DNA from: a plasmid
DNA: 64,000 nt
Direction: 5' to 3' (one strand)
Assembly: GCF_056712565.1 (NCBI RefSeq)
Contig: NZ_JBWXXM010000002.1
Part shown: piece by piece, positions 39,905 through 41,657 of the stretch
Layout: the number at the start of each line of letters is the position of its first letter
How positions within the stretch are numbered: the first letter of the stretch is position 1
Translations under genes and position numbers: made by a program
The notes under the pieces: model-generated
The model's database searches: none
What the model was told of the DNA's origin: nothing
What the model saw: only the letters and a program-made list of their open reading frames with translations

Positions 39905-40004
39905 ACAGCCTAAAAGTTGTACGCCCTATTTAACAGCTTTTAGGCTGTTAATTTGATATTACAGCTTTTAGGGTGTATGTTTAGGAAACAGCCTGCAAGG
40001 TGTA
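39905..40004 (+). promoter_or_regulatory. four tandem palindromic operator repeats upstream of hipB
   Basis: ACAGCCTAAAAGTTGTA, ACAGCTTTTAGGCTGTT, ACAGCTTTTAGGGTGTA, ACAGCCTGCAAGGTGTA at 39905, 39933, 39961, 39988 (27-28 bp spacing). Confidence 0.55.
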
Positions 40005-40030
40005 TCAGAGGAAACTACTGAGGCCAGCTT

Positions 40031-40327
40031 ATGATCAATAATGATTACCCGTTAAACACGCTCAACCAGCTGCGTCCCTTGCTCATTGGTTTTCGCAAGG
40101 CGAATGGCCTGACGCAAAAAGACCTGTCCGAAAGGTTAGGCGTCACTCAACAGACATACTCACGTCTGGAAGCCAACCCTGCCAGTGCGAGCATTGAACG
40201 GCTATTCAAGGTGTTTTCCATCCTGGGCGTAAAAATCAGCTTCTCCTCGGCAACCACCTCTTCAGAGAGGAAGCAGACGGAAGAAATGCTTAAATCAAAC
40301 TCACCTGCACGACAGGAGGATTGGTAA
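40031..40327 (+). CDS. hipB: HipB-like XRE-family HTH antitoxin
   Basis: HTH segment NGLTQKDLSERLGVTQQTYSRLE; 4 nt upstream of hipA. Confidence 0.75.
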   Translation: MINNDYPLNTLNQLRPLLIGFRKANGLTQKDLSERLGVTQQTYSRLEANPASASIERLFKVFSILGVKISFSSATTSSERKQTEEMLKSNSPARQEDW

Positions 40328-40331
40328 CGAT

Positions 40332-41657
40332 ATGAGCCGGAAACAGCAACGTCTGGTAATTTGGATGAACGGCATCAAAGTCGGGTACTGGGAAAAAAGC
40401 AAAGGGGTAGACAGCTTAGAATACCTTCCTGAATGGGTTGCTGACGAACAGGGAAGGCCGCTGTCATTGTCCCTTCCTTTTACTCCCGGGAACCAGGTCT
40501 GGCGTGGAAATGTGGTACGTGACTATTTTGATAATTTACTGCCGGACAGCGAAGGCATACGCAGACGTCTGGCAATGCGTTACAAGGCCGATAGCCTGGA
40601 GCCTTTTGATCTGCTGACGGAGCTGGGAAAAGACTGCGTGGGCGCGATACAGCTGCTTCATGACGGAGATGAACCCACTGATTTATATTCCGTGAAGTAT
40701 CACCCGCTTACTGAATCAGAAATTGCGGCAACTTTGCGTAATACCACGGAGACATTGCTACCGGGCAGGCCAGAAGATAACGACGACTTACGTTTATCTA
40801 TTGCCGGTGCTCAGGAGAAAACAGCCCTACTGTGGCATGAAGATCGGTGGTGTATGCCGGAGGGTAATACACCAACGACGCATATATTCAAGCTACCGCT
40901 CGGACTTGTGGGGAACATGAAAGCCGACATGAGCTCGTCGGTTGAAAATGAATGGCTCTGCTCGGTACTTCTCGGCCAGTACGGGCTCCCCGTGGCAAGA
41001 ACGCAGATTGCTCACTTTGAAGATCAGAAAGCGCTGGTGGTAGAACGTTTTGACCGAAAATGGTCAGGAGACGGACAATGGATCATTCGTTTACCCCAGG
41101 AGGATATGTGTCAGGCCCTGGGCGTTTCGCCATTACGAAAATATCAGGCGGACGGCGGGCCAGGTATATCGGAAATTATGGAGGTTCTGAGTAATTCAGA
41201 CCGTGCTGAGCGTGACAAAGCGCAGTTTTTTATGACGCAGATAATTTTCTGGATGATGGCCGCAACAGATGGCCACGCTAAAAATTTCAGTATTTCTATT
41301 GGGCCACAGGGACGTTATCACCTTACACCAAACTATGATGTGTTGTCGGCATGGCCGGTGATCGGTCATGGGAACAATCAGATATCCTGGCAGAAGTGCA
41401 AACTGGCGATGGCCGTACGTGGCAGTAGCAACTATTACCAGATATATCGAATACAACGACGCCACTGGATCAGGCATGGTGAGATAACCGGCCTGAGTAA
41501 ACAGCAGACAGAGGCGATGATAGAGGAAATCATCGCCAGAACCCCGGGTGTCATTGAACGTGTTAGCGGGCTTCTTCCGGACCAGTTCCCCCAGCAGCTT
41601 GCGGAAAGTATTTTTGATGGAATGAGGCAGCAATGCAGGCGCCTGGCTGAGAAATGA
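40332..41657 (+). CDS. hipA: HipA-family Ser/Thr kinase toxin
   Basis: 441 aa; SIAGAQEKTALL, ATDGHAKNFS, LRLPQEDMCQ segments match remembered E. coli HipA. Confidence 0.8.
   Translation: MSRKQQRLVIWMNGIKVGYWEKSKGVDSLEYLPEWVADEQGRPLSLSLPFTPGNQVWRGNVVRDYFDNLLPDSEGIRRRLAMRYKADSLEPFDLLTELGKDCVGAIQLLHDGDEPTDLYSVKYHPLTESEIAATLRNTTETLLPGRPEDNDDLRLSIAGAQEKTALLWHEDRWCMPEGNTPTTHIFKLPLGLVGNMKADMSSSVENEWLCSVLLGQYGLPVARTQIAHFEDQKALVVERFDRKWSGDGQWIIRLPQEDMCQALGVSPLRKYQADGGPGISEIMEVLSNSDRAERDKAQFFMTQIIFWMMAATDGHAKNFSISIGPQGRYHLTPNYDVLSAWPVIGHGNNQISWQKCKLAMAVRGSSNYYQIYRIQRRHWIRHGEITGLSKQQTEAMIEEIIARTPGVIERVSGLLPDQFPQQLAESIFDGMRQQCRRLAEK

What the first reader, a model, noticed from the sequence alone, without database searches (positions are those of the whole stretch)
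39905..41657. hipBA module with four phased operator palindromes of non-canonical sequence
Four ACAGC-N7-GNTGT palindromes at 27-28 bp spacing lie directly upstream of hipB. The architecture mirrors the four-operator E. coli hipBA promoter, but the half-site (ACAGC) differs from the TATCC...GGATA operator I remember, implying a diverged HipB specificity.
Basis: partly seen in the sequence, partly recalled or inferred. Interest (0 to 1): 0.35.

Follow-up and report, generated by a model that had tools for sequence, protein, structure and literature searches.

The report
IncHI2 plasmid hipBA with own operators
This is the hipBA toxin-antitoxin module of the IncHI2 resistance-plasmid backbone, whose promoter carries four evenly spaced palindromes that very probably bind its own HipB repressor; they differ in sequence from the E. 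coli operators, a correct but unsurprising finding.

Summary
The four palindromes are ACAGC-N6-GNTGT, not N7, at 39905, 39933, 39961 and 39988. Their spacing is 28, 28 and 27 bp, and they lie directly upstream of hipB (40031-40327) and hipA (40332-41657).

The window is IncHI2 plasmid backbone. It is 100% identical to many E. coli and Salmonella plasmids, where the genes are already annotated as a HipA-family toxin and an HTH regulator.

HipA keeps every kinase residue checked. HipB has the E. coli HipB fold, a different recognition helix (TQQTYSRLE versus KQATISNFE) and the C-terminal Trp.

In 78 related loci plus the window, from Enterobacterales and Betaproteobacteria with HipA 59-81% identical, the hipB upstream region always holds 1-6 copies of ACAG-N8-CTGT. 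Most loci have 3-4 copies, nearly always 27 bp apart, and the motif is 52-fold enriched over the flanking sequence. The motif reads best as an 18-bp TACAG-N8-CTGTA, the same frame as E. coli TATCC-N8-GGATA. Operator 3 sits in the spacer of a sigma-70-like promoter and operator 4 at about +1.

Diverged Hip operators already have precedents in Shewanella and Legionella. This is therefore a new member of a known kind: a bioinformatically defined and apparently undescribed HipB operator class. Binding and toxicity remain untested.

The parts
39905..39920 (.). Operator 1: ACAGCCTAAAAGTTGT (one mismatch in the right half-site)
   Evidence: Pattern search. The IncHI2 variant L084 has a perfect GCTGT here. 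Homologous sites are present in most enterobacterial loci.
39933..39948 (.). Operator 2: ACAGCTTTTAGGCTGT, a perfect palindrome. The palindrome extends to TTAACAGC...GCTGTTAA at 39930-39951.
   Evidence: The columns ACA.C and TGT are invariant in the 16-promoter alignment A3. The extended site is also flagged as terminator-like by the consensus scan.
39953..39958 (+). -35-like hexamer TTGATA, between operators 2 and 3
   Evidence: Consensus scan, (9 of 12 matches, 17-nt spacer). This is a prediction only.
39961..39976 (.). Operator 3: ACAGCTTTTAGGGTGT. It fills the promoter spacer and overlaps the first base of the -10 hexamer.
   Evidence: Its core columns are invariant in A3.
39976..39981 (+). 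-10-like hexamer TATGTT
   Evidence: T88 is invariant in alignment A3, and A89 and T93 are conserved in at least 90% of sequences. These give the TA...T core at 39976, 39977 and 39981.
39988..40003 (.). Operator 4: ACAGCCTGCAAGGTGT, at about the predicted transcription start
   Evidence: ACAG and TGT are invariant in A3. The position relative to +1 is inferred from the predicted -10 hexamer.
40020..40023 (+). Shine-Dalgarno-like GAGG, 7 nt before the hipB ATG
   Evidence: Read directly from the sequence.
40031..40327 (+). hipB, encoding a 98-aa Xre/Cro-type HTH antitoxin and repressor. The recognition helix spans residues 40-48 (QQTYSRLEA), the tail at residues 76-94 is disordered, and the protein ends in Trp.
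   Evidence: Pfam HTH_3 at 4.5e-15. E. coli HipB in the PDB at 1.4e-6. AlphaFold model helices. Foldseek top hits 3dnv_B and 4yg1, target-normalised TM 0.86. Alignment A2. RefSeq starts the CDS at ATC 40034.
40332..41657 (+). hipA, encoding a 441-aa Ser/Thr kinase toxin
   Evidence: Pfam HipA_C at 3.6e-51 and Couple_hipA at 3.7e-21. PDB 2wiu_A at E=1.4e-100. S156, K163, K187, D313, N318 and D336 are invariant and align with E. coli S150, K157, K181, D309, N314 and D332.

Best explanation
The locus is the hipBA type II toxin-antitoxin operon of the IncHI2 plasmid backbone. HipB is a Cro-like HTH dimer. I infer that it binds each of the four TACAG-N8-CTGTA-type palindromes.

Operator 3 occupies the spacer between a TTGATA (-35) and a TATGTT (-10) hexamer, and operator 4 covers the predicted start site. 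Occupancy would therefore exclude RNA polymerase and autorepress hipBA.

By analogy with E. coli, HipA (a kinase with all catalytic residues intact) would join as co-repressor. It would be held inactive by HipB, including HipB's C-terminal Trp tail. The fixed 27-28 bp spacing, about 2.6 helical turns, would allow neighbouring HipA2-HipB2 complexes to interact.

If HipB is degraded or the plasmid is lost, free HipA would phosphorylate an aminoacyl-tRNA synthetase (GltX in E. coli) and arrest growth. That would give plasmid addiction and/or antibiotic tolerance.

The operator half-site and the HipB recognition helix both differ from the E. coli chromosomal system. The plasmid module should therefore be transcriptionally insulated from the host's hipBA.

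Shown by sequence: the genes, the residues, the palindromes, and their conservation and phasing. Inferred: binding, repression, co-repression, the kinase target and the physiological role.
For: - **Palindromes:** there are four of them, and they are the only such sites in the window.
- **Conservation across loci:** in 79 promoters (the window plus 78 loci with HipA 59-81% identical) there are 250 ACAG-N8-CTGT sites in the 250 nt before hipB. That is 12.75 per kb against 0.244 per kb in the flanks. Adjacent sites are 27 bp apart in 148 of 171 pairs and 28 bp apart in 12. The number of sites per locus is most often 3-4.
- **Unbiased alignment:** in a MAFFT alignment of 16 enterobacterial promoters, the invariant non-coding columns are essentially the ACA.C and TGT cores of operators 2-4.
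- **IncHI2 variants:** variants at 95-96.5% identity keep the ACAG/TGT core of all four sites. Apart from one change that makes operator 1 a perfect palindrome, their substitutions fall in the spacers and between sites.
- **Link to hipB:** orphan hipB genes on other plasmids still carry two sites, which ties the motif to hipB rather than to its neighbours.
- **Promoter overlap:**
- **HipB helix and tail:** the recognition helix [TA]QQ[TS]Y[AS] and the C-terminal E-x-W are conserved across the clade, while the rest of HipB diverges.
- **HipB fold:** the model matches E. coli HipB.
- **HipA:** kinase residues are intact.
- **E. coli comparison:** E. coli K-12 has four 18-bp sites with 28-bp pair spacing.
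- **Distribution:** the module is present intact in more than 1,100 plasmids.
Against: - No experiment on this HipB or HipA was found. Papers only annotate the IncHI2 genes as a presumed post-segregational killing system (PMC6306219).
- The promoter is a consensus match (9 of 12), and such matches are no more frequent here than in shuffled sequence.
- HipB scores below NCBI's cut-off for the E. coli HipB equivalog (41.5 bits against 79), so properties of E. coli HipB cannot simply be transferred.
- S. oneidensis shows that a four-operator hipBA can assemble differently and without cooperativity (PMC4150777).
- Substitution counts among IncHI2 variants (10-12 synonymous against 7-10 non-synonymous codons in hipA) give only weak evidence of purifying selection at that short distance.
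Confidence: 0.85

Rival explanations
1. The palindromes bind some other factor instead of HipB, or act as plasmid iterons or partition sites. The other factor could be a plasmid or host regulator, or LexA-like SOS control.
For: The core ACAG-N8-CTGT uses the same tetramers as the LexA box CTGT-N8-ACAG (my own knowledge of the SOS box). Regularly phased repeats also occur in iterons. Binding by HipB is not demonstrated here.
Against: The motif travels with hipB into chromosomes of Enterobacterales and Betaproteobacteria with unrelated flanks. It always lies just upstream of hipB, including upstream of orphan hipB genes. The tetramers are everted relative to a LexA box, and the gaps between neighbouring sites are 11-12 nt, not 8, so no LexA box is formed. 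No other cluster exists in the 64-kb window.
Confidence: 0.04
2. Operator 2 with its flanks (39930-39951 plus a T-rich tail) is mainly an intrinsic terminator that insulates hipBA from upstream transcription, and the other repeats are incidental.
For: The consensus scan reports a 9-pair stem, a 4-nt loop and the tail TTTGATATTA.
Against: Only 3 of the stem pairs are G-C. Terminator-like hits are about as frequent in shuffled sequence (4 found against 2.6 expected). A terminator would not explain 3-6 phased copies with conserved half-sites and variable centres in 79 loci. The two functions are also not mutually exclusive.
Confidence: 0.03
3. The module is regulated as proposed, but its main role is not plasmid addiction. 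It could act in antibiotic persistence of the host or in abortive-infection phage defence, or it could be a selfish passenger with no benefit to the plasmid.
For: Most relatives are chromosomal, where addiction is not the obvious role. E. coli hipBA is known for persistence (PMC8262856). HipA gives a weak hit to a candidate defence family, PDC-M03A, at E=4e-5. An HNH endonuclease gene lies just downstream.
Against: The module is conserved in more than 1,100 mostly conjugative IncHI2-type plasmids, and the literature assumes post-segregational killing. The PADLOC hit is weak, and no defence system is called. None of these roles conflicts with the operator interpretation.
Confidence: 0.3

Closest known systems
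Escherichia coli K-12 chromosomal hipBA (b1508/b1507), with operators O1-O4 of sequence TATCC-N8-GGATA
   Same: The gene order is hipB then hipA, with the genes nearly abutting. HipA has the same two domains and the same catalytic, Mg-binding, ATP-binding and autophosphorylation residues (PDB 2wiu E=1e-100). HipB has the same fold (target-normalised TM 0.86) and a C-terminal Trp. There are four palindromic operators in an 18-bp frame starting with TA and ending with TA. Neighbours in E. coli's O1-O2 and O3-O4 pairs are 28 bp apart, against 28, 28 and 27 bp here.
   Different: The inner half-site is CAG instead of TCC (TACAG against TATCC), and no TATCC site is present. The spacing is even, rather than 28/39/28. 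HipB is only 24% identical and HipA 41% identical. The recognition helix is TQQTYSRLE against KQATISNFE. HipB scores below the NCBIfam HipB equivalog cut-off. The module is plasmid-borne. Nothing about it is experimentally characterised.
Shewanella oneidensis MR-1 hipBA (SO0705/SO0706), with operator GTGTA-N6-TACAC in four copies (PMC4150777)
   Same: It is a hipBA with four copies of a non-E. coli palindrome, and the genes are separated by a few bases rather than overlapping. It is the precedent showing that HipB operator specificity diverges.
   Different: The half-site and its orientation differ. The operators are separated by 34 bp, and the fourth lies inside hipB. Binding is not cooperative, and the ternary complex geometry is distinct (PMC4150777). 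HipA is far more distant from the plasmid protein (E=2.8e-21 against 1e-100 for E. coli).
Legionella pneumophila hipBST operators O1-O3 (PMC10653801)
   Same: A HipB-family HTH protein binds several evenly spaced inverted repeats upstream of its own operon. Those operators were also found by cross-species conservation.
   Different: The system is tripartite, with a split kinase. The inverted repeats are 6 nt long, there are three sites, and the gaps are 53 bp. The motif is different.

Membership tests
HipBA type II toxin-antitoxin module (HipA kinase with upstream HipB) | The toxin has the HipA N-terminal (Couple_hipA) domain and the HipA_C kinase domain | tested here: met
   Pfam PF13657 at 3.7e-21 and PF07804 at 3.6e-51, both above their gathering scores. 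NCBIfam TIGR03071 at 93.5 bits against a cut-off of 27.8. E. coli HipA structures at E=1e-100 over residues 7-431.
HipBA type II toxin-antitoxin module (HipA kinase with upstream HipB) | Kinase catalytic residues are present: the catalytic Asp (E. coli D309), the Mg ligands N314 and D332, the ATP-binding K181, and the P-loop with the autophosphorylated S150 | tested here: met
   S156, K163, K187, D313, N318 and D336 of the plasmid protein are invariant columns aligned to these E. coli residues (alignment A1; HMMER alignment). The residue roles are as listed in PMC11717353.
HipBA type II toxin-antitoxin module (HipA kinase with upstream HipB) | An Xre/Cro-type HTH antitoxin gene lies immediately upstream on the same strand | tested here: met
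   hipB ends at 40327 and hipA starts at 40332. HTH_3 at 4.5e-15. The best sequence and fold matches in the PDB are E. coli HipB.
HipBA type II toxin-antitoxin module (HipA kinase with upstream HipB) | HipB has a flexible C-terminal tail ending in Trp, which docks on HipA | tested here: met
   W98 is an invariant column, shared with E. coli W88. Residues 76-94 are predicted disordered. Docking itself is not testable here.
HipBA type II toxin-antitoxin module (HipA kinase with upstream HipB) | The promoter holds multiple palindromic operators that HipB binds for autorepression | tested here: inconclusive
   The palindromes are present and phased. They are conserved in 79 of 79 promoters and overlap a predicted promoter. 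Physical binding and repression cannot be tested with these tools.
HipBA type II toxin-antitoxin module (HipA kinase with upstream HipB) | HipA is toxic, HipB neutralises it, and HipA phosphorylates an aminoacyl-tRNA synthetase | not testable with these tools
   No experimental paper on the IncHI2 module was found.
E. coli-type HipB (NCBIfam NF007271 equivalog; operator TATCC-N8-GGATA) | The score reaches the equivalog cut-off | tested here: not met
   41.5 bits against a cut-off of 79. HipB is 24% identical to E. coli HipB.
E. coli-type HipB (NCBIfam NF007271 equivalog; operator TATCC-N8-GGATA) | TATCC-N8-GGATA operators lie upstream of hipB | tested here: not met
   There are no matches in the window even with one mismatch. 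E. coli K-12 has four in its hip promoter.

The most novel reading that the evidence does not exclude
TACAG-N8-CTGTA may be a third, previously undescribed HipBA operator class. It would be paired with an invariant [TA]QQ[TS]Y[AS] recognition helix and shared by a large clade spanning Enterobacterales, Betaproteobacteria and the IncHI2 resistance plasmids. Its near-invariant 27-bp phasing, close to E. coli's 28-bp pairs, would reflect an obligatory higher-order HipA-HipB-DNA assembly. Its orthogonality to the host TATCC system would let the plasmid module work independently of chromosomal hipBA in E. coli hosts.
Probability: 0.55. Interest if true: 0.4.

Novelty: new member of a known kind. 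Interest (0 to 1): 0.3.

Why it matters
IncHI2 plasmids are major carriers of mcr-1, mcr-9, ESBL and carbapenemase genes. Their hipBA is routinely cited as a stability and persistence determinant, but nobody has looked at how it is controlled.

A defined operator motif gives three practical things:
- ready-made probes for EMSA and reporter tests;
- a natural pair of related but apparently orthogonal HipB-operator systems (TACAG and TATCC in the same 18-bp frame) for studying how HTH specificity evolves;
- a way to ask whether plasmid and chromosomal hipBA modules cross-talk in clinical hosts.

The regulatory principle itself is textbook toxin-antitoxin autoregulation.

Tried and rejected
- **N7 spacing:**
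- **E. coli-type operators:** none are present in the window.
- **RNA elements:** no Rfam family matches 38900-42100, even at E<=1, so the 600-nt intergenic region and the repeats are not a known RNA.
- **HipB regulon on the plasmid:** relaxed ACAG-N8-CTGT hits elsewhere in the window are scattered. There are 33 against 21.5 expected, and only 2 of 100 shuffles reach that number, but no second cluster appears.
- **Second hipBA paralogue:** tblastn finds none in the window.
- **Defence-system assignment:** PADLOC gives only generic HTH hits and a weak PDC-M03A hit.
- **LexA-box reading:** rejected because the tetramers are everted and the inter-site gaps are 11-12 nt.
- **Published contacts:** the Schumacher 2009 and 2015 papers (PMC2764309, PMC7502270) were not held. 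I therefore do not assign individual E. coli HipB contact residues.
- **Published operator:** literature searches for a described ACAG-type HipB operator, or for functional work on IncHI2 hipBA, found none. The A. citrulli HipBA paper shows an EMSA on a whole promoter without defining an operator.
- **E. coli promoter comparison:** in the K-12 sequence the TTGACT and TATAAT hexamers are 23 nt apart. I did not rely on a detailed promoter-to-operator comparison with E. coli.
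Full report
**1. What is in the sequence**

Reading 39600-41900 and listing ORFs shows two same-strand genes. The first is a 98-aa ORF at 40031-40327. The second is a 441-aa ORF at 40332-41657, starting 4 nt after the first one's stop codon.

A pattern search finds four matches to ACAGC-N6-GNTGT at 39905, 39933, 39961 and 39988. The second is a perfect palindrome and is therefore counted on both strands. No other match exists in the 64 kb, where 0.61 are expected by chance. Start-to-start spacing is 28, 28 and 27 bp. A Poisson estimate for such a cluster arising by chance is about 2e-11.

**2. Where the window comes from**

The 2-kb region is 100% identical to 240-290 kb plasmids of E. coli, Salmonella and Klebsiella, and it occurs in 1,187 plasmid records. 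The records fetched are typed IncHI2A/MOBH and conjugative. The tellurite-resistance ter operon lies just upstream.

RefSeq already annotates the two genes as "helix-turn-helix transcriptional regulator" and "type II toxin-antitoxin system HipA family toxin". Papers on IncHI2 plasmids mention hipA-hipB only as a presumed post-segregational killing system (PMC6306219). I found no functional or promoter-level study.

**3. The proteins**

HipA carries Couple_hipA and HipA_C domains. It matches E. coli HipA crystal structures at E=1.4e-100 over residues 7-431. Global identity to E. coli HipA is 41%.

The residues that PMC11717353 lists as essential in E. coli HipA are S150, K181, D309, N314 and D332. 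They align with invariant S156, K187, D313, N318 and D336.

HipB has an HTH_3 domain. Its best PDB sequence match is E. coli HipB (E=1.4e-6). An AlphaFold model gives four helices at residues 11-24, 29-36, 40-48 and 55-64, and a disordered tail at residues 76-94. The model's top Foldseek hits are E. coli HipB in its operator complexes (3dnv_B and 4yg1; target-normalised TM 0.86, rmsd 1.3-1.5 Å).

HipB is only 24% identical to E. coli HipB. It falls below NCBI's HipB equivalog cut-off (41.5 bits against 79). The third helix with its preceding residue reads TQQTYSRLE, where E. coli has KQATISNFE. The last residue is Trp, as in E. coli.

**4. Are the palindromes operators? Comparative evidence**

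A scan of one genome per species with HipA returned 80 loci. One (L074) is a 100%-identical partial copy on a Citrobacter contig and was left out. The other 79 have HipA 59-81% identical. They come from chromosomes of Citrobacter, Serratia, Brenneria, Rahnella, Hafnia, Morganella and Yersinia, and from many Betaproteobacteria such as Gallionella, Paraburkholderia, Caballeronia and Rhodocyclales.

In 78 of those 79 loci, and in the window, an upstream hipB is recognisable. It has the helix [TA]QQ[TS]Y[AS] and a C-terminal E-x-W.

In these 79 promoters, the 250 nt before hipB hold 250 sites matching ACAG-N8-CTGT with at most one mismatch. That is 12.75 per kb against 0.244 per kb in the rest of the loci, a 52-fold enrichment. 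Loci have 1-6 sites: 38 loci have three and 26 have four. Of 171 adjacent pairs, 148 are exactly 27 bp apart and 12 are 28 bp apart.

Positions that were not used for site selection are also biased. T precedes the motif in 76% of sites, A follows it in 73%, and the centre tends towards CCTATAGG. The motif is therefore best written as an 18-bp tTACAG-N8-CTGTAt.

A MAFFT alignment of 16 enterobacterial promoters was made without reference to the motif. Its invariant non-coding columns are mostly the ACA.C and TGT cores of operators 2-4, plus a few T's flanking the sites or in their centres.

Two IncHI2 variants at 96.5% and 95% identity keep the ACAG/TGT core of all four sites. With one exception their substitutions fall in the site centres or between sites. 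The exception makes operator 1 a perfect palindrome.

Orphan hipB genes on two IncHI1-type plasmids, with no hipA ORF downstream, still carry two sites. The motif therefore follows hipB, not the neighbouring DNA. This is strong indirect evidence that HipB is the protein that reads it.

**5. Relation to the promoter**

The consensus scan finds TTGATA (39953-39958), a 17-nt spacer and TATGTT (39976-39981). Such matches are common by chance, so this is a prediction only.

The TA...T core of the -10 hexamer is conserved in the alignment. T88 is invariant, and A89 and T93 are at least 90% conserved. These correspond to 39976, 39977 and 39981.

On this reading operator 2 abuts the -35 hexamer. Operator 3 fills the spacer and overlaps the first base of the -10 hexamer. 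Operator 4 covers roughly +1 to +16. Bound HipB would therefore occlude RNA polymerase.

A GAGG sequence lies 7 nt before the hipB ATG.

**6. Comparison with known systems**

The E. coli K-12 hip promoter has four TATCC-N8-GGATA sites spaced 28, 39 and 28 bp. The plasmid sites share the 18-bp frame, the outer TA and the 28-bp neighbour spacing. They differ in the three inner half-site bases (CAG against TCC) and in having even spacing. No TATCC-type site exists in the window.

S. oneidensis hipBA has four GTGTA-N6-TACAC operators separated by 34 bp, binds without cooperativity, and forms a different ternary complex (PMC4150777). Legionella HipBST has three 6-nt inverted repeats with 53-bp gaps. 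Its authors refer to only two conserved hipBA operator sequences known at that time (PMC10653801).

Searches for a published ACAG-type HipB operator found nothing. The motif described here therefore appears to be an additional, undescribed operator class. It belongs to a family in which operator divergence is already established.

**7. Mechanism**

Shown by sequence:
- an intact kinase toxin gene;
- an adjacent HipB-fold HTH gene with a diverged recognition helix;
- four phased, conserved palindromes that overlap a plausible promoter.

Inferred from established HipBA biology (PMC8262856, PMC3920265):
- HipB dimers occupy the sites and repress hipBA;
- HipA acts as co-repressor and is held inactive;
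- loss of HipB frees HipA to phosphorylate an aminoacyl-tRNA synthetase and stop growth.

On a conjugative plasmid this would favour plasmid retention, persistence or both.

The fixed 27-28 bp phase is about 2.6 helical turns, so neighbouring dimers sit on roughly opposite faces of the DNA. It matches E. coli's paired operators, which suggests a similar higher-order assembly. That step is speculation.

The different half-site and recognition helix imply transcriptional insulation from the host's own hipBA. Cross-talk at the protein level cannot be assessed here.

**8. Rivals**

*Another binding protein or iterons.* This is unlikely, because the motif tracks hipB across unrelated contexts. The everted tetramers and the 11-12 nt gaps between sites also form no LexA box.

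*Operator 2 as a terminator.* The scan flags it as terminator-like. The stem is AT-rich, and a terminator would not explain the phased family of sites.

*Physiological role.* Addiction, persistence and phage defence all remain open. PADLOC gives only weak hits.

**9. Verdict**

It concerns a well-known, already annotated plasmid module that uses a textbook regulatory design. What this analysis adds is the corrected motif, its 18-bp framing, and its conservation and 27-bp phasing across a large clade.

Novelty: new member of a known kind. Interest: about 0.3.

Noticed in passing
window 34852-37382: An IS66-family insertion sequence lies here. It has a 537-aa transposase ORF at 35739-37352 (DDE_Tnp_IS66, 9e-98) and a 141-aa HTH_Tnp_1 ORF at 34936-35361. 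It is absent from the otherwise identical IncHI2 plasmid pSAL4578-1.
   Followed up: partly
window ~39424-39429 (compare L087 8890-9176): pSAL4578-1 carries about 285 bp in the intergenic region upstream of hipB that this window lacks. The indel lies about 480 bp upstream of operator 1 and does not touch the operators.
   Followed up: no
window 40031-40036: RefSeq/PGAP starts hipB at ATC 40034, so the annotated CDS translates as INNDYPL... in IncHI2 variants. An ATG one codon upstream (40031) has a GAGG 7 nt before it. The annotated start is probably one codon short.
   Followed up: partly
L085 2230-2788 (p1165-MDR, IncHI1A) and L086 2240-2797 (K. michiganensis plasmid): These are orphan hipB homologues with the TQQTYARLE helix and a C-terminal REKW. 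Each has two ACAG-N8-CTGT sites upstream and no hipA ORF downstream. One lies next to a Tn7-like tnsD gene.
   Followed up: partly
window 41718-43264: Three ORFs directly downstream of hipA travel with it in IncHI2 backbones: 68 aa, 136 aa (neither with a family match) and a 271-aa HNH_2 endonuclease. Their relation to hipBA, if any, is unknown.
   Followed up: partly
window 39930-39960: Operator 2 with its flanks forms a 9-pair hairpin followed by a T-rich tail, and the consensus scan calls it terminator-like. It might also dampen read-through from upstream.
   Followed up: no
L020 2049-2238 (Yersinia thracica): This promoter carries six phased ACAG-N8-CTGT-like sites, all 27 bp apart. That is the largest array seen among the 79 promoters.
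   Followed up: no
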